A program made the translations under genes and the position numbers. The notes below the pieces were generated by a model. That model was given only the letters and a program-made list of their open reading frames with translations, did not search any database and was not told the DNA's origin. From a virus (lineage: Duplodnaviria > Caudoviricetes), in IMG/VR virus record IMGVR_UViG_3300049794_000047: a stretch of 64,000 nucleotides of DNA; one strand, written 5' to 3'. Below, piece by piece: positions 37,324 through 53,023 of this stretch. Numbering within the stretch: the first letter of the stretch is position 1; the number at the start of each line of letters is the position of its first letter.

Positions 37324-38631
37324 TCACAACGGCACTGGGGAAGGCGACGAAAATTCAGTTGCGAGCGTGGCGGATTTGCTAAAGCCGACGTCGATCCCGA
37401 ACTCGGCGACCGCGTGCACGATGCACGTCAGGTTGTGGCACAGCACCTTGGCGAGTACCTCGTTCGCCTGGGCCGTCGGCAGCCGGGACCGGACGGATCC
37501 ACCAAACTTTGACTTGATCATCCACATCGTGGACTCGACATTGCTCCGGCGGTGGTAGTGGGCGCGGAACTCCTCGCTCTTGAGCGTGAAGTAGCACCAC
37601 ATGCGCTTCCAGGGCTCCGACTTGCTCCGCATGCCGACGCTGTTCGACTTGAACGGGATGAACGGGACTGCACCGACAGCCTCGATCGCCGCCAGGTTCT
37701 TCTTCTTCAGGTACGCCTTGTCGGCCGAGACCTCCCTCACCCGAAACGTCTTGGCGGTCTGCGCGAGCAGTGCGGGCAGGAGCGGGCAGTCGGCCTCGCT
37801 CGATACCCGCACGCCCGTCACGACGTTGGTGACGGTGCCGACCATCACGTGGAGCTTCACCCAGGCGTGCTCCGCGCGGAGCTTGCCGTGGGCCTGGTCG
37901 AACCAGCGGTCGTAGGTCACCGTCGAGAACCCCGTCGAGTCCTGCGCGAACTGGCCCGCTACGTTCTCGATCTCGGCGAGCGGCGCGGCCGACTCCTCGA
38001 TCAGCCGGACAAGGATCGGCGTGATGGCTGGATCCTCCATCGTGCGGAAGACGCTGCTGCAGTGCACGGCCCGGTCAATGTGGCCGCGCTCCTCGCAGCG
38101 CTCGATGTCCGTTGAGGCGCGGCGCCCCGAGAGCGTCGTGTACACCTTCATGACGCTCGCGAACACCGCGTCGCTCAACAGATGTGGCTTACGCCCGGCG
38201 CCCGGCTTGCGGGGAGGTTGCTCGATGCCCTCGCACAGTGCTTTCAGGAGCACCTCGACGTGCTCTTTCTCGTGCGTCTGCGCGGCGTTGTAGGCGGGCC
38301 AGTTCTGCTTGTAGGTCTTGCGCTTCTTGGGCAGCACGACCTCGCCGGTGTCCTCGTTCACGCCCACGACACCCTCCCAGGCGAGCCAGAACAGGACCGC
38401 CTCCTGGTGCTTGCACACCAGGCGGCGTAGCTCGTAGTCGGGACAGGTACAGGTCTGCTCGATGAGATCCACGAGGTAGGTCGGGGGAGCGTCCGACCGG
38501 ACCGACTGGGAGGGCACGGCGTAGCGGGCGCCGAGGGGGCGAATGCCGCCGAGCCGTGCGATCTGGCGCCCGCGCTCCTCGCGCGTCGTGGGGAGCGGCG
38601 AGAACTCCCCCGGGATCGTGTTGGTGGCCAC
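37324..38631 (-). mobile_element. DDE transposase (IS4/IS5-like) with an N-terminal SWIM zinc finger
   Basis: CTCPDY..CKH (SWIM), NWPAYN, DSTGF, WVKLH, ADKAY and YHRRSNVES...K. Confidence 0.85.
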
Positions 38632-40771: not shown

Positions 40772-41994
40772 AGGTTGTCCACGATCACGTACTACGCCCG
40801 TGTGACATCAGAACGGAGGCGCTTCTCCGACGAGGATCGGCGTGGCGCGCCTCGTGAATTTTGAGGAGGTGAATTTTGAGGAGCCAGTCTTCATTTTGAG
40901 GAGATGGGTTATTTTGATGCAAGGCCCTTTCGCACGCATCTGTTTAAGGCGCATCCGCGTTCGCGCTTCAGCTGTTGAATCTGGTCTCGAACAAGGTTTA
41001 CACCAGCATGCGACACCAAACCTGTATCGTTTATGGGGATAGAATTCTGTTAGAGGCTTCTCCTTACCGCATTTTGGACACCGCTTAAAAGCGCCATGGC
41101 TGGCGCGGCGCCTATCAGACATGCCGAACAGCTTGCAACGGAACACAGAAGATTCCAAGCGCCGACGGCCGCGTCTACCGTTCCGCCGCTCAAACAATGC
41201 TGCGAGCTACGCCTGCCTAGAGGGGCAAGCGTAGCGAGCGAAGTCGAGCGGGTAAGCGAAACGTGTGCATCGGTATGGACCCATCTCTAGCGCAAGCGCG
41301 GGCGAACGTCAAGCACAACCAGCGGACCAGCACTGCACCTTTATGTGTTAGATCTCCCCACGAGGGCCCCCAAATGGAGGAGCAGCCTTCAAGAGCGGGT
41401 GACCGAATGGGAAACCAGGCCATCACCCAGCGGGCCAAAGTTGGCGCTCAAGCTGACTGTAATCCCGCCTATTGTCGTCCGCCCCTCGCCAGCGAGTCAC
41501 GGACACTGCGGAGGGTGCCCTCAAGCACGGTGACCCACTTGCGGAGCTGATCGATCTCCTCCTCAAGCAAGGCCTCGATCTCAGCTGCATCAGCCTCAGC
41601 AGCACTCACGAGAAGTCGTCCAGTCATGGACCTTCCTGCAGCACTTCACACGGGGGACAGTTGATGAACGCTTTTCATCGTAGCATCAAGAGCCACAGCA
41701 CACAGAGAGCGAAGATCAGCTCGCACACAATGATCGCCCATTCTAGCGCGGCGGGAATTTGATACTTGTGCTGGCTAGTCACAATTGGGCCACCACACCT
41801 GCATGGGACGATGGAGAGCCCCGTCATCCGGCAACAGGACGAAACTTACCGGACGCGGAACAAAATTTGGGAGGCAACCGAGTGAAGAGTGCTTGGTTGA
41901 ATGCAGGGAGTTTGACGTCCCAACCTTCGGATTGTTATTCCGACGCTCTACAATGAGCTATGCGTGTGAGCACTCTAGGAGAGGCTGCCTCTCG

Positions 41995-42118
41995 CGGCGA
42001 ATCGTGGAGTCGAACCACGCGGCTTGTAGACAGAATCAGAATGAACCCTCGCGGGATCGAGTCAAGTCTGTCGGGTGCTTTCTTATGAGGAAAGTGGGAC
42101 CCACGTCCCGTATTCGCC
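41995..42118 (-). ncRNA. tRNA-like RNA (anticodon CAT) with a 55-nt insert in the variable loop
   Basis: Acceptor GGCGAAT/ATTCGCC, D arm GGGAC-GTGG-GTCCC, anticodon arm CTTTC-CTCATAA-GAAAG, T arm CGTGG-TTCGACT-CCACG. Confidence 0.75.
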
Positions 42119-42337
42119 AAAACCAGGTCACCGAGTTGATAGTCCTGGGTGCTTTTCAGCCTGTTCCGTAGACAGGTGCCAGAACGACTGGCTTGCAAAC
42201 GCCCTTTACGGGAATTTGATGGGAGTTGAACCCTGCTTGTGAGGACCTTCGATTGGTGACCGAGCGAGGAACACCTTAGCGAGCGCACAAGCAACTGTCA
42301 AGTGTTTTAAGACGGAGGGCTCTTCACTTAACAGTTC

Positions 42338-42898
42338 TCAGTTTTCTGATACGTGCCTTCCAGCCGGTGCCGTAAAGTGCTGCACCACGACCGGTGTACT
42401 TCTTTGGTTGATCGGTGAAGATCGCCAGCTTCCGAACAAACCCGACTTCGCGGCTTCGCGAACAGCCGGCATCAAAATCTGCCACGCTTCGTACGGCATA
42501 TCGCCGCGTAGGAGGTTGCATCGTAGGCAGGCCGCTACGACATTGTCTTTGGTGTGTCCCTTCGTGTTGTCGAGACGATCCAAGGTCATCTTGATGGTTG
42601 CGTCTTCGCAATATGAACAAACTGAAGATTCGAGCAGCGCCCTAAGATCCGTCAAATCAAGGTCGCAGACACTTCGTCCATGCCTCTTATCAGAGTTCCT
42701 AAGATCGTACAGCATGTAGGCAAAGGGATTACGTTTGCGATTGGAACGTTGTTTAGCTTTGTGCTTCTCGTCATTGTTGGAAATGTAAGATTTTTTGCGA
42801 CACGCTTCACAGACCCGACGTCGATATCTTTTGGTACCTGTGAAGCCGAAAGAAGTTTCCAGTTTGGACTTCCCGCATTGTTTGCACTCACGAAGCAC
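42338..42898 (-). CDS. HNH-type endonuclease, paralog of 32348 and 58618
   Basis: CKQC/CEAC; CSYCE..TLDRLDNTKGHTKDNVVAACLRCN. Confidence 0.8.
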   Translation of the reverse strand: MLRECKQCGKSKLETSFGFTGTKRYRRRVCEACRKKSYISNNDEKHKAKQRSNRKRNPFAYMLYDLRNSDKRHGRSVCDLDLTDLRALLESSVCSYCEDATIKMTLDRLDNTKGHTKDNVVAACLRCNLLRGDMPYEAWQILMPAVREAAKSGLFGSWRSSPINQRSTPVVVQHFTAPAGRHVSEN

Positions 42899-42907
42899 TA
42901 GACCTTT

Positions 42908-43795
42908 TTACACGACAGTGCCAAGATCCACCAAGCGCTCTTTGAGGTCGGCAAGTTCGCAGTCCCCAGCGCTCTCTGAGATCGGCGCGCTTGCGGTGTC
43001 AGCGCCCCCTGAGATCGGCGGGCTTACGCCTCCAGAGGCAAACGCCTCGGACTCCAGACCAGGATCGCCAGATCCGATCCTTGCCAATATATCCGTCGCT
43101 CCTAGGTCACGCAAGTAGCGCACAGCGATCCGGAGCGCCACCTTGTACTTCCCGGTACGAAGCTCATGCGACAATTGCGCCCGCATCGCCCGGAGGGCTT
43201 CAAGTATGATGTCGCGCTCATTACGCGCGGAGCTGGCCTCGTTCTTTGCTTGCTGAATTCGCTCCTCATAATCGCGCGAAGCTTGAACGGCAGCCTGTTT
43301 TCGAGCAGCAGCAGCCGCGTGTGCCGCAGCCTGGATGACAATGGAAGTCCCCGCCTTATCTTTCTCTTTCTTAACTTTGGCTGCCTGCTCCGCCAGTGCG
43401 ATCCGCTCGGCCTTGGCCCTCTTGGCCGCCTCGAGCCGTTGCTCGGCCTCGACGACGCGTTCCGCTGCCCTCCTGGCAGACTCCTCAGCCTGCTCGGCAA
43501 GTAATGGCGTCAGGCCGCGGAACCTCGCCGGTGGCAGCACGGTCACACACACAGGCTCCTCGAAGTCGCCATCCCGCTTAACCACGAGCTCGACGCCAAG
43601 CGCGTGGATCGCCCAGACCTCATCGCCGCGATGCGTGCGCGACGGCAGCTTGATGGCAATCGACCCGTGCGCCTCCAGGATCACCCGTGCGTCTTCATCG
43701 GTCGCGGTCGGCTGATCCAACATGTGAAACTGCCGGTAGCGCTCGTATGCGTGGCGGGTGAAGATCACGCGCATCCCTCCAGCTTCAGATAGCAA
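42908..43795 (-). CDS. Hypothetical protein with a coiled coil
   Basis: N-terminal IFTRHAYERY...CVTVLP, then a long A/E/K/R-rich coiled coil. Confidence 0.6.
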   Translation of the reverse strand: MLSEAGGMRVIFTRHAYERYRQFHMLDQPTATDEDARVILEAHGSIAIKLPSRTHRGDEVWAIHALGVELVVKRDGDFEEPVCVTVLPPARFRGLTPLLAEQAEESARRAAERVVEAEQRLEAAKRAKAERIALAEQAAKVKKEKDKAGTSIVIQAAAHAAAAARKQAAVQASRDYEERIQQAKNEASSARNERDIILEALRAMRAQLSHELRTGKYKVALRIAVRYLRDLGATDILARIGSGDPGLESEAFASGGVSPPISGGADTASAPISESAGDCELADLKERLVDLGTVV

Positions 43796-44375
43796 CGCTG
43801 CCCGCTGGGGAGATCGAGAATCCGACCTTCCTCTTATCCCTCAGGAAGATTTGAACCGAGCGTGCCATGTAGGCTGCCGTGAGCGCAATGAAGGGCAGGA
43901 ACTCGCCGTCCTCACACGTTGCTGCACCCGCGCCGACTTCACTATCAATCACGAACGCGTCATCCCACACGACTCTACCGAAGGCACCACCTGGAGCGAG
44001 TGCCCCGTGAATGCAAGGCACGTTGTGCTTTCGCACGTAATCCTGCACGAGCTTCCGAGAAGCTCCATTATCGAGACAATCGACAATGAGCGTCGCGCCC
44101 TTCAACAGGACGTCGATGTTCTCGGCGACAAGCTTGTTGTTGATCACAGAGAGCGGACGCTTGAACAGAAAGTCCATCGTCTGCTGGAGAGCTGCGACCT
44201 TCTTCTTGCCAACACCAGGCTTGCCATGAAACTGCGACAGCACGTTCTTTTGCTCGACGACGTCAAAGTCAATGATCTTTATAGCTGCTTTCTCGTTGCG
44301 GAGAAATTGAACAAGATGACTTCCGAGTGCACCGGCACCAATAATACAAACGAGTGAATGTTGGTTCATTTTCAT
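43785..44375 (-). CDS. ThiF/MoeB/E1-like adenylating enzyme
   Basis: CIIGAGALGS, IDFDVVEQKNVLSQ, GKKKV, VDCLDN..SR; candidate catalytic Cys in ATCED. Confidence 0.9.
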   Translation of the reverse strand: MKMNQHSLVCIIGAGALGSHLVQFLRNEKAAIKIIDFDVVEQKNVLSQFHGKPGVGKKKVAALQQTMDFLFKRPLSVINNKLVAENIDVLLKGATLIVDCLDNGASRKLVQDYVRKHNVPCIHGALAPGGAFGRVVWDDAFVIDSEVGAGAATCEDGEFLPFIALTAAYMARSVQIFLRDKRKVGFSISPAGSVAI

Positions 44376-44377
44376 CC

Positions 44378-45535
44378 TCACGGCCAACGACCTTGAAACG
44401 GCCGGACATGTTTTAGTTTGTACAAACAACATTGCGGCAGGCGTGGACGGATTGCTTGCGCAAGTTTGTAGGCATCGGTAAGACGGCAAACGCCGATCGC
44501 AAACCTTTCTGGTGTTCTACGTTGCAAAGTGGAAGTGATGCCCATGTCTTTCGCTAGCCGTTCAATAAGAAATTCTACACACTCCTTAGCGAAACCATCC
44601 GTGCAAAAACTCAGCTGCCCCGTTTTACTATACGTGCCGTCCCCACAAAACCAGTCAGCGACAATCTCTGGTGTTAGACGTAAGTCCTTTGGTACACGCT
44701 TCGGGCCGACGCGCGGATACCACCGCGCCCGTTCCTCTTTCAGCTCGTGATAATTCAGACTCTCTAATTGAAACGACCGCCCGCCGTTAATTTTACGCCC
44801 GTCAATGGTGCACGGGCGCTTGGACAAGCACCTCTCATACAGTCTGATTTGCCAACCTTCAGCGAGAAGACGTTTTGCTATGTGGCGCAGCCATCCCACA
44901 CGCTTTACGGCTTGCCCGATTCGCAGCGAGGGGGATCTTCCGGCACGCCGCGACTGAGACAAACTTCCATCGCCGAGCAGAAGTCCCGCAATGATATTGC
45001 AAGCGGTTGAAGTCAACTCCAGATGACGAACAACAGCTCTAGGCTTTCGCCCATGTTCCGCAAGGTAGCACTCAACAGTGCCATTATCACAACAATAGTT
45101 CTTCGCAATAACGTTGACTGAAGCACCGCGATCAAATCTGCGCAGTATATCCTGTACTGGCAACTTGACACGAGGCCTTGGTCTGGGCGCGGCTGTAAGA
45201 ACGATTGAAAGGATGTTCGCCCTTTTACGCACTGCGTGAATTGAGCGCTCCATTCTTGAAGCAATTTCGGAAGCCCCCAGGCACTGCTTTGCCAAGAGAT
45301 CCAGCTTGCGTTCTTCCTCAATTGTCCATGTATGACTTGATGGCGCGTCAGCACTGCGAATCGGGATCCCGAGCTTCTTGGCTCGTAGATAAACCGCTGC
45401 CCTAGAGCGTCCCAACAAATCAGCAATCTGCTGCCCGCTTTGTTTACGCTCAGCGGCCTGCTTCAACTGCCGATCGTCTATGGACCACCATGCTGCTCTC
45501 ACCTGGGGGTATTTACAACATAGATTAAACAACAT
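44378..45535 (-). CDS. LAGLIDADG homing endonuclease with N-terminal Myb/HTH-like repeats
   Basis: IIAGLLLGDGSL and LTPEIVADWFCGDG; WSIDD/WTIEEE repeats. Start uncertain. Confidence 0.8.
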   Translation of the reverse strand: MLFNLCCKYPQVRAAWWSIDDRQLKQAAERKQSGQQIADLLGRSRAAVYLRAKKLGIPIRSADAPSSHTWTIEEERKLDLLAKQCLGASEIASRMERSIHAVRKRANILSIVLTAAPRPRPRVKLPVQDILRRFDRGASVNVIAKNYCCDNGTVECYLAEHGRKPRAVVRHLELTSTACNIIAGLLLGDGSLSQSRRAGRSPSLRIGQAVKRVGWLRHIAKRLLAEGWQIRLYERCLSKRPCTIDGRKINGGRSFQLESLNYHELKEERARWYPRVGPKRVPKDLRLTPEIVADWFCGDGTYSKTGQLSFCTDGFAKECVEFLIERLAKDMGITSTLQRRTPERFAIGVCRLTDAYKLAQAIRPRLPQCCLYKLKHVRPFQGRWP

Positions 45536-45809
45536 CAACGCCAAAAGGCGTCTTCGGTCGTACAACCAGCAAGTTATGCGGACGTGCCCCGGTCGCAGCA
45601 AAACGATCAATAACAAAATCCGAAAAGTCAGCGTTCGGAGCCGCCGCAATCCCAGGGATGCCGCCAGTACGCACGGCCTCCGTAACCCATGCCCTGATGT
45701 CACCGTCTGTCGCCTGGAACATAACGGGGTCCGGGAGGTCGCCGTTCGATCCCGAAAACGTAACGTTGATCCGCGCCTCAGTGTCCTTGATAGCATTCAT
45801 ATCATTCAT
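45525..45809 (-). CDS. Putative ubiquitin-like (beta-grasp) protein ending RPKTPFG-VDVV
   Basis: 94 aa; lies between JAB and E1; beta-helix-beta pattern with a near-terminal Gly. The fold is inferred from context. Confidence 0.6.
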   Translation of the reverse strand: MNDMNAIKDTEARINVTFSGSNGDLPDPVMFQATDGDIRAWVTEAVRTGGIPGIAAAPNADFSDFVIDRFAATGARPHNLLVVRPKTPFGVDVV

Positions 45810-45821
45810 TGCCCTTGATCC

Positions 45822-46202
45822 TTATCCTTGCTGAGAGAGGCGTCGCAGTTCATCTGCCCACGAAGGTTCCTCATCAACAATCGTGGCAGCATACGTTAGC
45901 TTGTCCGGGCCCCTCCATTCCAACCTGACCACGTCAGTGTCGCTCGTGATCCACCAGTAGATACGCGTTCCAAGAGCCGCTTCGATCGCGGCAAATGTGG
46001 TGACATCGGTGTAGGATGGCTCAGGGACGCCGCTTCCTGGATGACTGTGCGCAACACCGAGCAGCGTATCCTCCTTGAACGCGTCCCAAAGAACCTGCCA
46101 CAAGGTTCGGCTATCCGGGATGCTCCCTGACGTGCGCCCCTCGGGGAGATGCCAGAACAGAGGGTTCCCGTTCCTGTCAACCGCCACACCGGCCTCGATC
46201 AC
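45822..46202 (-). CDS. JAB/MPN (JAMM) metalloprotease
   Basis: N-terminal Glu (IEAG) and HSHP...PS..D motif. Confidence 0.85.
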   Translation of the reverse strand: MIEAGVAVDRNGNPLFWHLPEGRTSGSIPDSRTLWQVLWDAFKEDTLLGVAHSHPGSGVPEPSYTDVTTFAAIEAALGTRIYWWITSDTDVVRLEWRGPDKLTYAATIVDEEPSWADELRRLSQQG

Positions 46203-46804
46203 GGGGCTCCCCCGATCTCTCGCAGCTGCCGATCACGCATGACCCTGAGCCGGTCGAGATCGAAACCCGAGATACGCACGATAAAGAGGCGACGATTGCC
46301 GGGCAGATCGTTAAGCTCGTAAAGGTAGTCCGCCTCGCTGGTCGTCCCAACGATCACGAACTGCCGCGTTTTCCGCGTGACTTCACGGGCGAAGGCCCTG
46401 CGGCTGGTGTCATGTGTCCGCGCCAAGCTCGCCTTGAGTGCCGCAACCTCCATAGCCATCAACTCACACGCTTCTACAATCCACTTGTCCAGGGTAGCCT
46501 CCATCAACCTCCGTTCATCGAGCGGAAAGTCATCGGTGTACCAGTCATCCTTGATCGCGAGCAAACGCAGCGCGCTCGACTTGCCGCAGCCCTGCGGACC
46601 CCCAATGACCAGCACAGGCCCCAACTGACAGCCGGGCCTGCGTGCACGCCGGACCGCCCCAATGGGCATCATGCGCGACGCGGCCCGAACGCGTGGGGAG
46701 TCCTCGGCGCCCGCACAATCAATGAGCCAGCGGTCGAGACGGGGCGTACCATCCCATACAAGGGAGCCGAGATAGCGCGTCACACTCTTATCAGAGGTGT
46801 TCAT
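46199..46804 (-). CDS. VirE/VapE-like P-loop NTPase fragment
   Basis: WDGTPRLDRWL, GPQGCGKSS, RQFVIVGTT and GNRR; only 201 aa. Confidence 0.7.
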   Translation of the reverse strand: MNTSDKSVTRYLGSLVWDGTPRLDRWLIDCAGAEDSPRVRAASRMMPIGAVRRARRPGCQLGPVLVIGGPQGCGKSSALRLLAIKDDWYTDDFPLDERRLMEATLDKWIVEACELMAMEVAALKASLARTHDTSRRAFAREVTRKTRQFVIVGTTSEADYLYELNDLPGNRRLFIVRISGFDLDRLRVMRDRQLREIGGAP

Positions 46805-46839
46805 GCAGACAGCCTTTCTTCATCAGACAAAGCCAGGGG

Positions 46840-47421
46840 CTAGGGCATGTAATGCCGATACGTGAGCGAGACGCGCACGAACATTGGCTTGTCGCCCCGC
46901 GGAATGCGGTGCTCATGCGTGCGCTGCATGCCCGCCGGCATCACGAAGATGGAGCCGTGCTCGAGGAGCTGCCGCTGATCGGCCGGAATAATGCCGGTCT
47001 GGCCCCTCTCACGCCACCAGATCTCACGGGGCTGCCCGAACGACACGACAGCGATGGGGTGCTCGTGGTCCATCCCTGGCGAATCGTCACTGTGCCATCC
47101 CAGCTGCATCGACGCATTGTCGTAACGGTTGAGGAAGCAAACGTTGTACGTGAACACGTCCCTCATCGCCCCATCTAACCCACCGATGTCGTCACGGTTA
47201 AGCTGGTGCTGGATGTCAAGAACGAGAGACGAATAGGGGACGGGAGTGTACGTCCGCACACCCCGGCCTTCACCGTACGTATACGTCCCCGTGGCAGCCG
47301 ACATGAAGCACTCCAGGCGTGCGTCCGTTACCTGAATCCACGGTGTGCTGTGGAGGACATCATCGAGAGCGGTGTCTCGAAAGCCGGAGCGAAAATAGTA
47401 GGGCTTCATGGCAGAGCTCAC
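46840..47421 (-). CDS. AlkB-family 2OG-Fe(II) dioxygenase
   Basis: FLNRY, WHSDD (HxD), HGSIFVM, HEH and RVSLTYR. Confidence 0.9.
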   Translation of the reverse strand: MSSAMKPYYFRSGFRDTALDDVLHSTPWIQVTDARLECFMSAATGTYTYGEGRGVRTYTPVPYSSLVLDIQHQLNRDDIGGLDGAMRDVFTYNVCFLNRYDNASMQLGWHSDDSPGMDHEHPIAVVSFGQPREIWWRERGQTGIIPADQRQLLEHGSIFVMPAGMQRTHEHRIPRGDKPMFVRVSLTYRHYMP

Positions 47422-48365
47422 ACATGACGAAAGATGACCAGCTTGTGCTCACGCTGTGCCTGCAGCACGACACCGGGGATGGACTCGAGCGTAAAAAACA
47501 TGTCGCCCTTCTCGCCGGTGTCGTGATCAGTAAGACAGATACCTGCATCAATGAGGCGCAGGCGCTCATCGCAGACACACTCGAACTTCTGCCGATCGAG
47601 GCGGTACCGGACCGCCCACTCGTTGTGCCGCAGCTTCTTCGCGTCAAGAAAGACCGCGCCGCCCACCGCGAGGGCCGCACGCGCGGCAGCATCGAAGTCG
47701 TGCAGCGCCATCTCTCGCCGTCCCTCACCGTCCCCAAGCTTCCTCACCAGCTCCTTACGGCGCTCTTCCTTCTGACGCTTTTCCTCCTCCTCGCGACGCA
47801 GGCGTTCCAGTTCAACGCGACGGCGCTCGGCCCCGCTACGCTGCCAGCTCTCCATGCGGAAGGCTGCGTCAAGCGCAGGCGACACGCCCTTGATGGGGGT
47901 GATAGACGTTTTTTGATCGAGGAATGCCTCGAGTACCTGGTCCTCCTGCCCGAGCGGCATCTCCAGCCCCCGATAGACCAGGGGCCCCTCCTTGTTGACA
48001 CGCCCCGCGCACACACGCGCGAAGCGATCCAGCCCCTCATCGAGCAGAAAGACCTTCTCGGAGAATTTCGCGATGCGCTTCGGATCAGGATCGATGTAAA
48101 TGTCGTCTGCGACGAGACGATCACCGACGAGGTAACCTCGCACAGCGTACTGGAGCAGATCAGGCTGAGCGCTCGCTGGACCCCCTACACAGGCTTGCCG
48201 GTTGGAAACCGTGAACGTGTGCCACCCGTATTCCTTCGGAAGGCACCCCTCGATGGACCAGCGCTGCTGGGCAGAGTAGAGTGTCCTGCCGCCGAGCCAT
48301 GGAAGGGTCACCGTCTCATCGCCCGTTTGAAGTAAGTTGCGCCAGCCCATGTTTGTCTCGTTCAC
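47418..48365 (-). CDS. Hypothetical protein with a coiled coil and a C-terminal DAGICL Cys motif (candidate E2-like)
   Basis: In the operon with TROVE, JAB, Ubl and E1; LIDAGICL resembles the E2 G-x-I-C-L active-site segment (inference). Confidence 0.55.
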   Translation of the reverse strand: MNETNMGWRNLLQTGDETVTLPWLGGRTLYSAQQRWSIEGCLPKEYGWHTFTVSNRQACVGGPASAQPDLLQYAVRGYLVGDRLVADDIYIDPDPKRIAKFSEKVFLLDEGLDRFARVCAGRVNKEGPLVYRGLEMPLGQEDQVLEAFLDQKTSITPIKGVSPALDAAFRMESWQRSGAERRRVELERLRREEEEKRQKEERRKELVRKLGDGEGRREMALHDFDAAARAALAVGGAVFLDAKKLRHNEWAVRYRLDRQKFECVCDERLRLIDAGICLTDHDTGEKGDMFFTLESIPGVVLQAQREHKLVIFRHV

Positions 48366-48435
48366 AGCTGTGACAATCGTTGGGGGTGTTTGATGATCAT
48401 CGTGAGGTGCCCCCGTTGGGTTGAGTTTGCCGTTA

Positions 48436-50331
48436 TCAGGGTTGGGTTTGATAAGTTGTTCTAGACGAATAGCAATAAGCAGGCTTCTTGAGCAGATCCG
48501 TCTTGAGAATTGTGTCCACGAGCGTCACACGCGGCGTCGCCGCCACGCGAGCCCCCACACCGACCGGCGTCGCCGCTACGAGAGCGCGAAGGGTCCGCGG
48601 GATCGCGTAGACGTCGTCGAACGTATTCTCCTGGATGCGGAAGCACGGGATGCCGAGCGCTGCCGCTGTCTGATCGATCGCGCCGAAATTCTCACCGGGC
48701 AACATGAGGAAGCCAAAAGCCATGGGGCGCAACTTGGACTGGATCACGTAGGCTTCGAATGTTTTCCGCTCGCCGCCGTCACCGACGAAGATGAACAGCG
48801 AGTCCTCGTCATCCTTGGGCTGAAACTTCGCCAGCGCGAGGACGCCCGCGCCATGAGCCGTACCTCCATCCGCCGAGATGCCCTTGAAGGCGTTCACGAC
48901 ACCCACCGCAGAGGCGTGCTTGATCTCGACCACGCGCCCCGCCGTGTTGAACACGGCGACGTGTGTGCGGTCCGGAGGAAAACCCTGGAGGAACTTACCG
49001 AGGAGCATCTTCGCCTTCTCGATGGACTGCCCCATCGAGCCCGAGATGTCGATGATGACGTAGATCCGTAGGTTCTTCGTCACCTGCTCGACGGCCTTCT
49101 GAAGCGCCGTGTCCGCCGCAGCCTGGAGCTGCTCCTGCACGTCCTTGGACTTCACGTTGCGCGCGATATGCGACGCGCGCATGTCGTCCTCGGCCTTCTT
49201 GAGGGCGCGATCCCACTTCGCCTTGACCTCCTTGACCTCCAGGAGTCCCAGCTCCTCGAGCGTGGGTGTGAGGATGATAAGATCCTTGTTGGACAGGGAG
49301 CCGGACTCGACAGCGGCACTCATGATGGCCCGCGTGACGCCGAGCTTCTTCGGCAGGAGCCCGACAATGCGCTTCCAGTCCGGCTTCTCTGCGCAGATCT
49401 TCTCGCAGATCTGCGCCTCGGTCAGCTCATCCCAGGTCTCACCCCTGGCCATCGCGACACCGATGAGAATCGAGCGCCGACCGTCCTTGGCCTGGTCCTG
49501 AGCCCAGCCGAGGGCCTCGAAGAACCTCGGAGTCTCGGGCTTGTAGCCAACCACCCGCGCGAGGTCCTTCACGGTGTTCTTGAAGCCGGCCTTGATGAGG
49601 CCGTCGAGCATCTTGGGGTTTCCCTCACGAAACTGGAGCCACTTCTCGACCGCCTTCGACCAGCGGCCGAGAAACGGGCGCCGGGCAGAGTTGCCGAAGC
49701 CAAGCTCGCGGTTGATGATCGCTACGCCGGGCAACTTCAAGAGGTCGTGAACCCGAAGCAGGAGCTTCGGGTTTAGATCCTTGCCGTCTCGACGATGGAT
49801 GAGCACCATCGCCTCGCCAATGTCGCGAAAGTCCTCGTCGTAGAACGCGATCTTGCCGCCGTCCAGGACGGGGTCGCCCTTCCGGGTCTGAACGAGCATG
49901 AACGCGGCGAGCACGACCTTCAGGTCACGATGTTCCTGCGCGAACGCGTAGGAAGCCCAGCGGGCCGCGAACTCGTTGTCCATCTTCCAGACCTCGGAGA
50001 CCTGGCGATACATCCAGGCGGCAACCTCGGGGAAGAGCCCGGGCGCGCGGTACTCTCCAACGACCTTGCCGTTCTCCTCGACTCTCTTGTCGGGCCTCAT
50101 CACACCCCGACGGATCTTGTTCGTTTTCTTGCCGACCCTCGTCAGCTCGTAAACCACCTTCTGACCGTTCTCCTCCTTGTGGGTCACGGGTACCCAGCGC
50201 ACGCCCCCCGTATGCCGGGCGTCTGGGGCCGCCATGCCCGGTCGGTTGTGCACCATGTGGTCGGTCAGGTTCAGGAGCGTCTGGAGGATCTTCTCCGCAG
50301 GCCCCAACTTTTCCGCGGCTGCTATCGTCAT
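48436..50331 (-). CDS. Ro60/TROVE-like protein with a C-terminal vWA domain
   Basis: DNEFAARWASYA, VKDLARVVGYKP and ETWDEL resemble TROVE motifs; vWA MIDAS DISGSM, GGT, GDG; GAGG RBS before ATG 50331. Confidence 0.75.
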   Translation of the reverse strand: MTIAAAEKLGPAEKILQTLLNLTDHMVHNRPGMAAPDARHTGGVRWVPVTHKEENGQKVVYELTRVGKKTNKIRRGVMRPDKRVEENGKVVGEYRAPGLFPEVAAWMYRQVSEVWKMDNEFAARWASYAFAQEHRDLKVVLAAFMLVQTRKGDPVLDGGKIAFYDEDFRDIGEAMVLIHRRDGKDLNPKLLLRVHDLLKLPGVAIINRELGFGNSARRPFLGRWSKAVEKWLQFREGNPKMLDGLIKAGFKNTVKDLARVVGYKPETPRFFEALGWAQDQAKDGRRSILIGVAMARGETWDELTEAQICEKICAEKPDWKRIVGLLPKKLGVTRAIMSAAVESGSLSNKDLIILTPTLEELGLLEVKEVKAKWDRALKKAEDDMRASHIARNVKSKDVQEQLQAAADTALQKAVEQVTKNLRIYVIIDISGSMGQSIEKAKMLLGKFLQGFPPDRTHVAVFNTAGRVVEIKHASAVGVVNAFKGISADGGTAHGAGVLALAKFQPKDDEDSLFIFVGDGGERKTFEAYVIQSKLRPMAFGFLMLPGENFGAIDQTAAALGIPCFRIQENTFDDVYAIPRTLRALVAATPVGVGARVAATPRVTLVDTILKTDLLKKPAYCYSSRTTYQTQP

Positions 50332-50377
50332 CGTGGTCCTCTTGTAGCAAGCGAGCGCCCGACCTTGCGGGCTAGCG

Positions 50378-50471
50378 TTTGTATATCCATTCGCAAGCGA
50401 CGTCAATCCCCGCGTGAACCGCCGGCGCCACCAGGACGGTTGACAAGCGCCGCGTCCAGACGCTATACAAT
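50378..50471. promoter_or_regulatory. Divergent sigma70-like promoters
   Basis: Minus strand TTGACG-17-TACAAA (50406-50378); plus strand TTGACA 50440 with TATACAAT at 50464. Confidence 0.5.
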
Positions 50472-50483
50472 CGTGATCACGAC

Positions 50484-50651
50484 ATGGCTGCGAAGACGCC
50501 AGGCCAGCGCAAGACCAAGGGGATCCTCATCCGCGTCACGGAGGCGCAGAAGCGGAGCCTCGCCAAGACCGCCAAGAGAGCAGGCCTGGGCCTCAGCTCA
50601 TGGATGTTAAGCGTTGCGCTGCATGCAGCTCAGAAGATGAAGGGCGCGTAG
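50484..50651 (+). CDS. 55-aa ribbon-helix-helix-like regulator (not in the ORF track)
   Basis: MAAKTPGQRKTKGILIRVTEAQKRSLAKTAKRAGLGLSSWMLSVALHAAQKMKGA. Confidence 0.7.
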   Translation: MAAKTPGQRKTKGILIRVTEAQKRSLAKTAKRAGLGLSSWMLSVALHAAQKMKGA

Positions 50652-52317: not shown

Positions 52318-52781
52318 TCAGCGTTGCTTCCTGTGCGACCTCGAAGGCATGAACATGATCCACCAGCGCCCTCTACGGGCAGTGCGTCTCCGGTGGCAGC
52401 AGGCACAAACAACTTCGCATTTTGAGATTTCTGTCATAAGCCTGTTCCAGTTCCATCCGCGATTCACAAGTTCAGAAACATCCGCAAACTTTTTCCTCGT
52501 ACGTGATCAAACTCCAGCACGACCACATCCGTTTCTTTGCAGTCGGTACAAGGGTTGCTGAGTAAATAATCGTAAAGATGCTCTCTTGTCTTCTTTCTTT
52601 GTCCCGTTATGCGGCCGGAAGCCCGTTGTATTTCGTGCCTTCGATTTTCTTTGTAGTACCGCTTCCAATAAGTTTTCATACAGTCGCGGCACCACCAGTG
52701 GTGACCATCAACACTCGCGGAGGCTTTGTGGAAATCGTTAAGTCTCTTGACCTTTTGGCATTTTCCACAGACTTTTTGCAC
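52318..52781 (-). pseudogene. HNH endonuclease, frameshifted near 52490
   Basis: CGKC/CRDC, PCTDC..LEFDHVRG, then in another frame KCEVVCACCHRRRT. Confidence 0.7.
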
Positions 52782-52815
52782 GTCATAACTTACCGTGGCT
52801 ATCTGACACTCGAGA

Positions 52816-53023
52816 TCGTCGGTAGCTCGCCGAGGATTCGAACCTCGCCCCAACGCGACGGCAAGCATGCAGTGATCGCCAACGTCTATACCGCGCAGGC
52901 ACGCAGGCGCGAGGGGGCGCCGCGCTCCTCGCAAGAGCCCGCCACGACTTCCAGACGGTCGAGCACGCAGGGGAGGAGCACCTCTCAGCAGCAGCCCGCG
53001 CCTGGCGCGAGAAGCTTGGCTAG
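52816..53023 (+). pseudogene. Degenerate duplicate of 54039-54489 (tRNA 3' half plus GNAT fragment)
   Basis: gatcgtcggtagctcgccgaggattcgaacctcgcc is identical in both; RDGKHAVIANVYTAQARRREG. Confidence 0.7.

What the first reader, a model, noticed from the sequence alone, without database searches (positions are those of the whole stretch)
42338..50651. Candidate new system: Ro60/TROVE-vWA operon coupled to a ubiquitin-like conjugation set in a phage-like genome
Seen: one minus-strand run of closely spaced genes: TROVE-vWA, 315-aa GICL protein, AlkB, VapE fragment, JAB, Ubl, LAGLIDADG, ThiF/E1, coiled coil, HNH, then tRNA-like RNAs, with a divergent RHH gene at its head. Known: Ro60/Rsr binds Y RNAs and damaged structured RNAs; E1+JAB+Ubl(+E2) sets form bacterial protein-conjugation systems, some antiviral; vWA domains can bind Ubls; AlkB repairs alkylated nucleic acid. 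Inference: a virus-encoded Ubl tagging system linked to RNA or tRNA surveillance or counter-defence. No ThiS-type GG sulfur carrier or thiamine/Moco genes appear in the window, which argues against cofactor biosynthesis.
Basis: partly seen in the sequence, partly recalled or inferred. Interest (0 to 1): 0.92.

Follow-up and report, generated by a model that had tools for sequence, protein, structure and literature searches.

The report
Ro60-like RNA particle with ubiquitin-like module
A huge soil phage, its relatives and some myxobacterial chromosomes keep one gene set that joins a Ro60-shaped RNA-binding protein and tRNA-shaped small RNAs to a small ubiquitin-like protein, its activating enzyme and its trimming protease, a link between RNA surveillance and protein tagging that I found in no paper.

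Summary
Only five form a conserved unit: a 631-aa Ro60-shaped vWA protein, a 310-aa protein (two OB-like barrels, a long helix, an invariant-cysteine domain), a JAB/JAMM peptidase, a 94-aa protein with an invariant C-terminal KTPFG, and a minimal ThiF-type E1. They keep this order in 13 huge-phage loci, one GenBank phage and 17 mostly myxobacterial MAG loci. AlkB, the VapE fragment, LAGLIDADG, HNH, the coiled-coil protein and the RHH gene come and go.

A covarying tRNA-shaped RNA on a long stem (Y-RNA-like) sits beside the cassette in most loci, including a chromosomal one with no tRNA genes nearby.

A complex model threads the Gly tail into the E1 adenylation site. All six loci without JAB have a Ubl that ends exactly at that Gly.

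TROVE is supported by fold only. The E2-like reading of the 310-aa protein is unproven, and the beta-grasp fold was not tested directly. Function is inferred: Ubl activation coupled to a Ro60-like RNP.

This scan has found the same cassette before on other DNA. No published description turned up.

The parts
48436..50331 (-). Core gene 1: 631-aa Ro60-shaped protein. It has an N-terminal beta-rich insert (residues 32-95), a helical TROVE-like region (about 100-415) and a C-terminal vWA domain with an invariant MIDAS motif (D428, S430, S432, T491, D518).
   Evidence: Pfam vWA families only. AF2 model pLDDT 79. The nine best Foldseek PDB hits are all Ro60/TROVE over 480-551 columns, E 2.4e-7 to 7.4e-6, TM 0.31-0.46. 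BFVD hits include 'Ro-like RNA binding protein' and 'TROVE domain-containing protein'. vWA domain Z 15.2, rmsd 3.3, 164 aligned. 1569 homologues at E<=0.001, none with a Pfam TROVE hit among the 120 listed. Invariant columns.
47418..48350 (-). It has two OB-like barrels (about 11-139), a long charged helix (158-206) and a C-terminal helix / four strands / loop / helix domain with invariant Cys258 and Cys272 (G-I/V-C-L).
   Evidence: No hit in Pfam, PHROGs, NCBIfam or PADLOC. AF2 model pLDDT 83. Only weak fold matches, all Z below 5. Invariant residues. 1436 homologues at E<=0.001. Adjacent to the vWA gene in most loci, but separated from it by 2-3 kb in L010 and L012 (vWA not found in the L013 locus), and adjacent to the Ubl/E1 genes in L035, where the vWA gene lies on another contig.
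46840..47409 (-). Variable accessory gene: AlkB-like 2OG-Fe(II) oxygenase.
   Evidence: Pfam 2OG-FeII_Oxy_2 5.4e-17; PHROG 21963 'alkylated DNA repair' 1.4e-50. Present inside the cassette region only in the window, L002/L003 and L004, at different positions.
46199..46804 (-). Insert: stand-alone VapE-like P-loop domain (a fragment of a primase/helicase type). Not part of the cassette.
   Evidence: Pfam VapE-like_dom 3.2e-41. No counterpart in any of the 34 related loci.
45822..46202 (-). Core gene 3: 126-aa JAB/JAMM metallopeptidase. The likely start is the GTG at 46202, because MxEAG is conserved.
   Evidence: Prok-JAB 4.3e-5. Invariant E3, H52-x-H54, S63 and D66 in four relatives. Present in 24 of 30 loci that hold a Ubl gene; its absence goes with a Ubl that ends at Gly.
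45525..45809 (-). Core gene 4: 94-aa ubiquitin-like candidate. It has an invariant ...R-P-K-T-P-F-G90 followed here by a four-residue tail, VDVV.
   Evidence: No family or PDB sequence hit. 312 homologues, and 287 clusters at 50% identity. The tail after the Gly runs from 0 to about 55 residues and is hypervariable. Complex model with E1.
44378..45535 (-). Insert: free-standing LAGLIDADG homing endonuclease with N-terminal HTH repeats, sitting between the Ubl and E1 genes in a low-GC patch.
   Evidence: LAGLIDADG_2 1.2e-19. PHROG homing endonuclease 4.7e-16. GC 0.526 at 44001-46000 against about 0.61 around it. Present at this junction in some relatives (L001, L002, L008, L011, L021) and absent in most.
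43785..44375 (-). Core gene 5: minimal (about 195 aa) ThiF-type E1 adenylating enzyme. It has GxGxxG (13-18), DCLDN..R (99-107) and invariant Cys100, Cys121 and Cys154. It has no rhodanese domain, no CxxC zinc motif and no E2-binding domain.
   Evidence: ThiF 1.8e-19. NCBIfam ThiF/MoeB/UbaA 1e-18 to 1e-14, all far below the equivalog cut-offs. PADLOC E1-E2 models 1e-10, E1 part only. Invariant columns.
42908..43768 (-). Window-specific gene: 286-aa protein with an Ala/Glu-rich coiled coil. Not part of the cassette.
   Evidence: No family hit. No counterpart in any related locus.
42338..42898 (-). Insert: HNH / endonuclease VII-type homing endonuclease.
   Evidence: PHROG 1035 1.5e-21. HNH genes occur at changing positions in relatives.
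41871..41991 (-). Y-RNA-like tRNA mimic. A 9-bp outer stem and an 8-bp inner stem carry a tRNA-like head (D arm, anticodon-like arm, T arm, defective acceptor stem, no CCA). CUCG at the 3' junction is invariant. A U-rich stretch follows.
   Evidence: Rfam tRNA 33.3 bits for the head only, with a mismatched acceptor. MFE -45.8 kcal/mol, z -3.5. Model R1 gives full-length matches beside the cassette in 14 phage loci and 7 MAG loci. 95% of cells paired against 31-48% when slid, with both-side changes in 26 of 32 pairs. CUCG in 21 of 21 copies and CGAR in 11 of 21.
50484..50651 (+). Divergent 55-aa RHH (NikA/TacA-like) gene. Not part of the cassette.
   Evidence: Pfam NikA-like 1e-6 and TacA1 1.8e-4. 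No tblastn match in any of the 34 related loci.

Best explanation
This is one copy of a conserved, portable cassette that couples a Ro60-like ribonucleoprotein to the activation of a ubiquitin-like protein.

Shown by sequence comparison:
- Five genes (Ro60-shaped vWA protein, p313, JAB, Ubl, minimal E1) travel together in huge phages and in Myxococcota chromosomes.
- In most loci they are accompanied by a covarying tRNA-mimic RNA on a long stem.

Supported by modelling and comparison:
- The small protein is made with a variable tail.
- JAB trims it to expose the invariant Gly90.
- E1 binds it with that Gly in the ATP site and adenylates it.

Inferred:
- The Ro60-like ring and the OB barrels of p313 bind the Y-like RNA or damaged tRNA-type RNA.
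- The activated Ubl is passed to a nucleophile within this particle. That is either the invariant Cys272 of p313 as a thioester carrier and then a lysine, or a lysine directly as in E2-less SAMP/TtuB systems.
- The result is that the particle or its clients are marked, assembled or switched.
- In the phage the cassette sits inside the tRNA gene array, so it most likely serves upkeep or protection of the phage's tRNA pool during infection.
- AlkB here, and RtcB or an RNA ligase in relatives, are optional RNA-repair add-ons.
For: Linkage:
- Same gene order in L001-L016 with E1 identity down to 45%, in GenBank Virus Rctr197k and in 17 MAG loci.
- Compact four- or five-gene forms occur in bacterial contigs of 0.54 and 1.03 Mb. 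The 1.03-Mb locus is flanked by ordinary cellular genes: CHAT-TPR, a methyltransferase, DsbA, radical SAM.
- There is one vWA copy in each of five genomes searched.
- Inserts (HNH, LAGLIDADG, AlkB) come and go without breaking the order.

Ro60 likeness:
- The best PDB and BFVD fold hits are Ro60/TROVE proteins over about 540 columns.
- The MIDAS motif is invariant.

RNA:
- Full-length R1 matches with E 1e-8 to 1e-16 lie next to the cassette, including L032, which has no tRNA gene in 17 kb.
- Covariation is strong.
- The anticodon triplet varies between copies while the rest is kept.

Ubl and E1:
- Complex model ipSAE 0.65, best of 3 controls 0.00. That mark was reached by 58 of 80 solved complexes and 2 of 110 mismatched pairs, and the counts hold only roughly because my own alignments were used.
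- The three runs agree in at least 94% of contacts, and the partner's pLDDT is at least 90.
- Ubl residues 84-90 touch E1 residues 15-18, 100-104 and 124-134.

JAB as trimming enzyme:
- 6 of 6 JAB-less loci encode a Ubl ending at Gly, against 4 of 24 loci with JAB. Fisher p 3.5e-4, not corrected for relatedness.

RNA-repair neighbours in relatives:
- RtcB, R2K and NADAR in L001.
- RNA ligase in L004.
- AlkB in the window, L002 and L004.
Against: - No experiment exists. No conjugate, thioester or RNA-protein contact is shown.
- TROVE is not detectable by sequence, even with a 40-sequence profile. TM-scores are only 0.31-0.46.
- The beta-grasp fold of the 94-aa protein was not tested directly. 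A profile comparison with ThiS/MoaD gave probability 2.3%.
- Solved MoeB-MoaD and ThiF-ThiS complexes exist, so the complex pass may partly reflect the model's memory of them.
- The C-terminal domain of p313 gave no specific fold match (Z at most 4.8), with UEV/RWD-type rows mixed among unrelated folds. An E2-like step is therefore a guess.
- Six MAG loci have no convincing R1 RNA.
- In L035 the vWA gene is on another contig.
- All phage loci belong to one clade, where synteny alone could keep genes together.
Confidence: 0.55

Rival explanations
1. Sulfur-carrier reading. E1 adenylates the small protein, which is then thiocarboxylated. It delivers sulfur for thiolation of tRNA or of the tRNA-mimic RNA, as in TtuB/TtuC, Urm1/Uba4 and SAMP2/UbaA. 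The cysteines of p313 act as a sulfur relay on an RNA-binding scaffold.
For: - The E1 scores best against ThiF/MoeB/UbaA models.
- The cassette lies in tRNA arrays.
- p313 has invariant cysteines and OB-like barrels.
- JAB-less forms exist, so deconjugation is dispensable.
- Known Ubl sulfur carriers also conjugate to proteins (PMC7527816, PMC9574740).
Against: - The protein ends in F-G, whereas all twelve ThiS/MoaD proteins from the same myxobacterial genomes end in G-G.
- There is no profile similarity to them.
- The E1 has no rhodanese domain.
- No PP-loop thiolase, cysteine desulfurase or rhodanese was seen in the cassette or its conserved flanks.
- This reading gives the Ro60-like vWA protein no role.
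Confidence: 0.15
2. Two independent modules that are only neighbours. A Ro60-like/Y-RNA particle (with p313) and a separate Ubl-E1-JAB set tag host or phage proteins unrelated to RNA, for example for host takeover or counter-defence. They are kept adjacent by shared descent and co-transfer.
For: - All phage loci are from one clade with broadly conserved synteny.
- Up to several kb of other genes separate the two halves in L001, L010, L012 and L013.
- In L035 the vWA gene is elsewhere in the genome.
- Bacterial E1/JAB/Ubl operons such as CBASS Cap2/Cap3 and Bil act on proteins (PMC10097602).
Against: - The five genes are contiguous, or nearly so, in many phage and bacterial loci. They moved together between phage and chromosome contexts with unrelated flanks.
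- p313 stays with Ubl-E1 when the vWA gene is absent (L035) and stays next to the vWA gene in most other loci, so it bridges the two halves.
- Inserted homing endonucleases have not led to dispersal.
Confidence: 0.15
3. Chance cluster of phage accessory genes, with the small ORF not a real Ubl.
For: - The 94-aa protein has no family hit.
- JAB is below Pfam's cut-off.
Against: - The family has 287 clusters at 50% identity with an invariant KTPFG.
- The order is conserved in more than 30 loci.
- The complex model passes its controls.
- JAB presence correlates with a Ubl tail.
Confidence: 0.03

Closest known systems
Bacterial and phage Ro60 (Rsr) with Y RNAs: Rsr-YrlA/YrlB, the Deinococcus Rsr/Y RNA/PNPase particle, the Salmonella rsr-yrlBA-rtcBA operon, and Thermus phage phiLo Ro60 with Yrl1/Yrl2 (PMC4201824, PMC12135203, PMC7790460)
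   Same: - A helical region plus vWA protein whose best fold matches are Ro60 structures.
- An adjacent small RNA with a tRNA-like head on a stem closed by its 5' and 3' ends, often in two copies.
- RtcB or an RNA ligase nearby in some relatives.
- Ro/TROVE proteins are already reported in a subset of jumbo phages (PMC7824862).
   Different: - No sequence-level TROVE signal.
- An extra N-terminal beta-rich insert.
- The RNA's hallmark is an invariant CUCG. The published CGAA-type motif is present in only 11 of 21 copies.
- None of these papers reports a Ubl, E1, JAB or p313 partner.
E2-less prokaryotic Ubl systems: archaeal SAMP/UbaA/HvJAMM1, Thermus TtuB/TtuC, eukaryotic Urm1/Uba4 (PMC4443979, PMC7527816, PMC9574740)
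   Same: - A small Gly-ended protein, a ThiF-type E1 and a JAMM peptidase, with no recognisable E2 or E3.
- A thematic link to tRNA.
   Different: - It ends in F-G, not G-G, and is often made with a tail that must be removed.
- The E1 is about 195 aa, with no rhodanese or zinc motif.
- No profile similarity to ThiS/MoaD.
- It is coupled to a Ro60-like protein and p313.
Bacterial E1/E2/JAB/Ubl operons: CBASS Cap2/Cap3, the Bil system, and the operon classes of Iyer, Burroughs and Aravind 2006 (PMC10097602, PMC1779556); also the vWA-MoxR FtsH-ternary systems that carry a full Ubl conjugation set (PMC7159879)
   Same: - The E1 domain matches PADLOC E1-E2 models at 1e-10 and NCBIfam 6A-MBL cap2_3 at 2.4e-11.
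- JAB and a Ubl are present.
- In the FtsH-ternary systems a vWA protein is also linked to a Ubl conjugation set.
   Different: - No E2 domain is fused to or encoded beside the E1.
- There is no cyclase, effector, MoxR ATPase or RING protein.
- The vWA here is of the Ro60 type.
- The cassette is carried by phages inside tRNA arrays.
- The 2006 paper mentions no vWA or TROVE linkage.
Asgard-archaeal Nidhogg viruses (bioRxiv 10.1101/2021.07.29.454249)
   Same: One virus genome is reported to encode both a Ro60 (TROVE + vWA) protein and ThiF/E1-like proteins.
   Different: The two are reported separately, with no gene linkage, Ubl, JAB or RNA described. I did not examine those genomes.

Membership tests
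Ro60/TROVE family (Pfam TROVE PF05731 + vWA) | Sequence match to the TROVE domain | tested here: not met
   - No TROVE hit for the protein.
- None in the precomputed Pfam lists of the 120 listed homologues.
- No Ro60 chain found by phmmer, or by a 40-sequence profile, against PDB sequences.
Ro60/TROVE family (Pfam TROVE PF05731 + vWA) | Architecture: a helical HEAT-like region followed by a vWA domain with MIDAS, similar in fold to solved Ro60 | tested here: met
   - The nine best Foldseek PDB hits are all Ro60/TROVE (9kop, 9nfa, 1yvp, 9nep, 9l5y, 2i91, 9nen), 480-551 columns, E 2.4e-7 to 7.4e-6, but TM only 0.31-0.46.
- BFVD hits include Ro-like and TROVE proteins.
- The DxSxS..T..D MIDAS motif is invariant.
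- A closed ring was not verified.
Ro60/TROVE family (Pfam TROVE PF05731 + vWA) | Binds a Y RNA or misfolded RNA | not testable with these tools
   Only adjacency of a covarying Y-like RNA is shown.
YrlA-type bacterial Y RNA | About 100-130 nt, 5' and 3' ends paired into a long stem, tRNA-like D and T arms, encoded next to the Ro60 gene | tested here: met
   - Fold of 41870-42000(-): z -3.5.
- Rfam tRNA match limited to the head.
- Helices 1 and 2 are 96% and 90% paired, with both-side changes in 16 of 17 pairs.
- It lies beside the cassette in 21 loci.
YrlA-type bacterial Y RNA | GNCGAAN0-1G / CGAA motif near the 5' end (PMC4201824, PMC12135203) | tested here: inconclusive
   CGA[AG] is found at the 5' foot of the outer stem in 11 of 21 copies. 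The invariant motif of this family is instead CUCG on the 3' side. No Rfam Y RNA family matched.
Ubiquitin-like (beta-grasp) modifier or carrier | Beta-grasp fold | not tested
- No sequence or profile link to ThiS/MoaD or to any PDB chain.
- Indirect only: pLDDT at least 90 in the complex model, and contacts with i, i+2 spacing (15/17, 66/68/70, 80/82/84) that suggest a sheet face on the E1.
Ubiquitin-like (beta-grasp) modifier or carrier | Conserved C-terminal Gly that is free or exposed by processing | tested here: met
   - Invariant K-T-P-F-G, followed by 0 to about 55 hypervariable residues.
- It ends exactly at Gly in all 6 JAB-less loci.
Ubiquitin-like (beta-grasp) modifier or carrier | Docks on its E1 with the C-terminus in the adenylation site | tested here: met
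   Model only.
- ipSAE 0.65, best of 3 controls 0.00. That mark was reached by 58 of 80 solved complexes and 2 of 110 mismatched pairs, and the counts hold only roughly because my own alignments were used.
- Runs agree in at least 94% of contacts; partner pLDDT at least 90.
- The tail (84-90) touches E1 15-18 and 100-104.
- Similar complexes are solved, so the pass may be from memory.
ThiF/MoeB/E1 adenylating enzymes | Rossmann-type ATP loop GxGxxG, the DxxDN..R motif, and a match to the ThiF family over the cut-off | tested here: met
   ThiF 70.3 bits against a cut-off of 28.1. G13, G15, G18, D99, D102 and R107 are invariant.
ThiF/MoeB/E1 adenylating enzymes | Membership of a named equivalog (ThiF, MoeB, UbaA, TcdA, Cap2) | tested here: not met
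   All NCBIfam hits are far below their cut-offs, for example ThiF 67 against 275 and UbaA 53 against 450.
JAB/JAMM (MPN+) metallopeptidase | E...HxH...S..D metal site | tested here: met
   E3, H52, H54, S63 and D66 are invariant in four relatives. Prok-JAB scores 23.8 bits, just below the cut-off of 25.
E2 / UBC-like fold (for p313) | UBC fold with the catalytic Cys after strand 4, usually preceded by HPN | tested here: inconclusive
   - The topology (helix, four strands, Cys272 loop, helix) and G-I-C-L resemble E2.
- There is no HPN motif and no Pfam hit in 37 members at E<=10.
- Fold rows to UEV Tsg101 (Z 3.8, rmsd 4.0, 84 aligned), FANCL, BRE and RWD proteins are tied with unrelated folds.
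- Foldseek also gave weak dsRBD rows.
- The atlas search was uninformative.
ThiS/MoaD-type sulfur-carrier system | C-terminal Gly-Gly, and a partner sulfurtransferase or biosynthetic genes | tested here: not met
   - It ends in F-G, whereas the twelve ThiS/MoaD proteins of the same genomes end in G-G.
- hhalign probability is 2.3%.
- No rhodanese, PP-loop, thiamine or Moco genes are in the cassette.

The most novel reading that the evidence does not exclude
The acceptor of the activated Ubl is not a protein lysine but RNA. The E1-made acyl-adenylate (chemically like an aminoacyl-tRNA synthetase intermediate), or a p313 Cys272 thioester, is transferred to a hydroxyl or amine of the tRNA-mimic Y-like RNA or of a damaged tRNA held by the Ro60-like ring and the OB barrels. 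That would give a covalent protein-RNA mark used for tRNA quality control or as a decoy during infection.
Probability: 0.08. Interest if true: 0.95.

Novelty: new variant of a known kind. Interest (0 to 1): 0.78.

Why it matters
Ro60 particles and ubiquitin-like tagging are each well studied, but I found no report of a genetic link between them in prokaryotes or their viruses. In humans the Ro autoantigen set includes both Ro60 and the ubiquitin ligase Ro52/TRIM21; that comparison rests on my own knowledge.

A compact four- or five-gene cassette with its own RNA would give a tractable system to ask three things: what the Ro60 vWA/MIDAS site is for, what Y-like tRNA mimics do, and how an E1 with no recognisable E2 chooses its targets. 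The cassette has more than a thousand homologue clusters in metagenomes and is shared by huge phages and their likely myxobacterial hosts.

It also bears on why huge phages carry large tRNA arrays and how they protect them.

Tried and rejected
- **Sequence route to TROVE.** Pfam, NCBIfam and PHROGs on the protein, phmmer, and a 40-sequence profile against PDB sequences found only vWA.
- **VIA second look at the vWA model.** The list was filled by vWA domains, so the helical part went untested.
- **The 94-aa protein.** No hit in Pfam, PHROGs, NCBIfam or PADLOC. Its profile found nothing against PDB. The ESM Atlas holds no model of it. hhalign against twelve ThiS/MoaD proteins gave probability 2.3%. 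Pfam on ten long-tailed family members gave nothing useful.
- **p313.** Pfam on 37 members at E<=10 gave only coiled-coil noise. Foldseek PDB had no hit at E<=0.001. VIA wide and the VIA second look stayed below Z 5. The Atlas feature and shape searches were uninformative. So neither E2, dsRBD nor any other fold can be assigned to its C-terminal domain.
- **Nearest phage record.** Megablast of the whole stretch against 50,697 phage records found only Virus Rctr197k, at 70% identity over the vWA gene.
- **Whole genome.** None is held for this window.
- **Transcription signals.** The sigma-54 GGGT-N8-ACCC palindromes reported elsewhere in this genome are not upstream of this gene run. Promoter and terminator scans were no better than shuffles.
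- **RNA model in six MAG loci.** R1 with filters off found nothing convincing in L027, L029, L031, L033 and L035. L030 gave only 18 bits, about 100 nt upstream of its vWA gene.
- **RHH gene as regulator of the cassette.** Rejected, because it is absent from all related loci.
- **Rfam.** No Y RNA family matched.

Full report
**Setting.** The window is high in G+C (about 0.6) and carries 31 tRNA genes on the minus strand. Its own vWA protein is recorded on a 262-kb contig. Its relatives lie on IMG/VR viral contigs of 28-529 kb and in the GenBank record Virus Rctr197k, class Caudoviricetes. Earlier notes of this scan call the genome an uncultured huge soil phage.

**Observation.** An independent gene call on an identical contig gives the same ten genes.

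- ThiF
- LAGLIDADG with HTH repeats
- a VapE-like domain standing alone
- an AlkB-like 2OG oxygenase
- an HNH/endonuclease VII nuclease
- a vWA domain
- a marginal Prok-JAB match
- an RHH protein

The 94-aa, 310-aa and 286-aa proteins have no family. TROVE is not detectable by sequence.

**What is conserved.** I fetched loci through the vWA protein, through the E1 alignment in viral contigs and through the p313 alignment in one genome per species. I then located each window protein in them by tblastn.

- Five genes keep the order vWA protein, p313, JAB, Ubl, E1 on one strand. This holds in 13 distinct phage loci with E1 identity down to 45%, in Rctr197k and in 17 MAG loci, most of them labelled Myxococcota.
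- In several loci the five genes are directly contiguous (L005, L007, L009, L027, L030, L031, L033).
- AlkB occurs in only three phage genomes, at different positions.
- LAGLIDADG sits between the Ubl and E1 genes in some relatives. HNH genes appear at changing positions.
- The VapE fragment, the 286-aa coiled-coil protein and the RHH gene have no counterpart anywhere.
- The low-GC patch at 44-46 kb fits a recent homing-endonuclease insertion.

Six MAG loci lack JAB and have the four-gene form. Two of these lie on contigs of 0.54 and 1.03 Mb. The flanks of the latter encode ordinary cellular proteins, and the genomes are 6.8-12.3 Mb. The cassette is therefore cellular as well as viral. It is single-copy in each of five genomes searched. 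In L035 the vWA gene lies on another contig while p313 stays with JAB, Ubl and E1.

**The vWA protein.**
- An AlphaFold2 model from 40 sequences has mean pLDDT 79.
- Its nine best Foldseek matches in the PDB are all Ro60/TROVE structures, including Xenopus Ro60, human Ro60 and Thermus phage phiLo Ro60. They align over 480-551 columns with E 2.4e-7 to 7.4e-6. TM-scores are only 0.31-0.46.
- In BFVD the full-length matches include a 'Ro-like RNA binding protein' of a Gordonia phage and 'TROVE domain-containing' proteins.
- The vWA domain itself is clear: Z 15.2, rmsd 3.3, 164 aligned. Its MIDAS residues are invariant.
- I therefore call it Ro60-shaped, not a Ro60 orthologue. It also has a beta-rich N-terminal insert.

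**The small protein, E1 and JAB.**
- The 94-aa family has 312 close homologues, and 287 clusters at 50% identity. It has an invariant K-T-P-F-G followed by a hypervariable tail of 0 to about 55 residues.
- JAB has an intact E..HxH..S..D site.
- E1 is a minimal ThiF-type enzyme with the ATP loop, the DxxDN..R motif and three invariant cysteines.
- A complex model of E1 with the protein cut at Gly90 scored ipSAE 0.65, with the best of 3 controls at 0.00. That mark was reached by 58 of 80 solved complexes and 2 of 110 mismatched pairs. The counts hold only roughly here because my own alignments were used.
- The three runs agree in at least 94% of their contacts, and the partner's pLDDT is at least 90.
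- The tail residues 84-90 touch the GxGxxG loop and the DCLDN motif.
- MoeB-MoaD and ThiF-ThiS complexes are solved, so this pass shows likeness to them rather than proof of binding.
- A comparative test agrees with JAB acting as the trimming enzyme. All six JAB-less loci encode a protein that stops exactly at the Gly, against 4 of 24 loci with JAB. Fisher p is 3.5e-4, and relatedness is not corrected for.
- The beta-grasp fold itself was not tested. A profile comparison with ThiS/MoaD found nothing.

**p313.**
- The model (pLDDT 83) shows two small barrels, a long charged helix and a C-terminal helix / four strands / loop / helix domain. That domain carries invariant Cys258 and Cys272.
- The barrels give weak OB-type matches: the Mpa inter-domain, S1/cold-shock domains, IF1/eIF1A, RPA. 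All are below Z 5.
- The C-terminal domain matches nothing specifically. UEV, FANCL and RWD rows at Z 3.6-4.1 are tied with unrelated folds, and Foldseek offered weak dsRBD rows.
I put it at roughly one in four.

**The RNA.**
- Downstream of the HNH gene, 41871-41991(-) folds into a 9-bp and an 8-bp stem that carry a tRNA-like head (z -3.5). Rfam matches only the head, with a mismatched acceptor stem.
- Orthologues in L002 and L013 show compensatory changes and different 'anticodons'.
- A covariance model built from these three sequences finds full-length matches (E 1e-7 to 1e-16) within about 2.5 kb of the cassette (mostly within 1.5 kb). It does so in every phage locus and in Rctr197k, and in seven MAG loci. 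One of these is L032, which has no tRNA gene in 17 kb.
- On 21 copies, 95% of cells pair, against 31-48% when the partners are slid. Twenty-six of 32 pairs show changes on both sides. The alignment was fitted to the model, which favours the structure.
- CUCG at the 3' junction is invariant. The published CGAA-type motif is present in only about half the copies.
- This anatomy is that of YrlA-type Y RNAs (PMC4201824). Six MAG loci have no convincing match.

**Context.** In the phages the cassette lies inside the tRNA gene array. Relatives carry RtcB, an R2K ATP-grasp protein, NADAR or an RNA ligase nearby.

**Literature.** Full-text searches found the following:
- Ro/TROVE proteins in some jumbo phages (PMC7824862)
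- phage Ro60 with Y-like RNAs (PMC12135203)
- bacterial Ubl operons (PMC1779556, PMC10097602)
- vWA-MoxR systems with a Ubl conjugation set (PMC7159879)
- an Asgard virus reported to encode both Ro60 and E1-like proteins, with no link drawn between them (bioRxiv 10.1101/2021.07.29.454249)

None describes this cassette. The library is incomplete, so this is not proof of absence.

This scan has reported the same cassette several times on other DNA. One of those reports was later marked 'part of it fell', without saying which part. I therefore rest every claim only on what I tested here.

**Verdict.**
It is too inclusive about which genes belong, and its mechanism is unproven.
- The best reading is that a Ubl activated by a minimal E1, and trimmed by JAB, acts within or on a Ro60-like particle with tRNA-mimic RNA. 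I hold this at about 0.55.
- A sulfur-carrier role and mere co-residence of two modules are the main rivals.

Noticed in passing
L007:14209-14573: A related huge-phage contig encodes a full-length bacterial class A RNase P RNA (299.5 bits, E 1e-96) inside its tRNA array, about 3.6 kb downstream of the cassette's E1 gene.
   Followed up: no
homologues of window 45525-45809 (for example P0123, P0125, P0135): About a fifth of the 120 listed Ubl homologues carry a conserved 26-residue Cys-rich tail after the Gly (F-A-S-C-D-H-C..C..C-C-G-C-G-S-K-R type). Some cluster representatives have extensions of 100-160 residues with no Pfam domain. This recalls ubiquitin made as a fusion to small zinc-binding proteins.
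   Followed up: partly
window 44378-45535; L001, L002, L008, L011, L021: The junction between the Ubl and E1 genes is a recurrent landing site for a LAGLIDADG homing endonuclease. HNH genes recur between p313 and JAB (L002, L004, L005, L020).
   Followed up: partly
window 41995-42335 (-): Upstream of the Y-like RNA there are further T-arm-like motifs (GGTTCGACTCC at about 42013, GGTTCAACTCC at about 42232) that neither ARAGORN nor Rfam calls as tRNA. In most loci the Y-like RNA is preceded by a conserved A(C/A)UCC, the end of such a T arm, so it may be cut out of a tandem transcript.
   Followed up: partly
L015:1690-1824 and L015:3461-3594: Two Rfam tRNA matches span about 134 nt, that is, tRNA genes with an insert of about 60 nt, in a related phage.
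   Followed up: no
window 37324-38631 (-): A 435-aa protein with a SWIM zinc finger and a DDE_Tnp_1 transposase domain: a mobile element in the phage genome.
   Followed up: no
window 46840-47409 (-): The AlkB-like protein also matches the 2OG part of the PADLOC model CARF_2OG (E 4.4e-10).
   Followed up: no
L019 (KX853510.1 184234-186183): In Virus Rctr197k the vWA gene is annotated only as a misc_feature ('similar to conserved hypothetical protein'), which suggests a frameshift or stop in that record. In whole-genome searches two myxobacterial copies read through one stop codon (G003 TAG, G006 TGA).
   Followed up: no
window 52464-52934 (-): A 156-aa ORF between tRNA genes has an Stc1 domain match (E 8.8e-6).
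   Followed up: no
L001:15329-16140: In one relative a NADAR (ADP-ribose processing) gene overlaps the start of the JAB gene by 4 nt.
   Followed up: no
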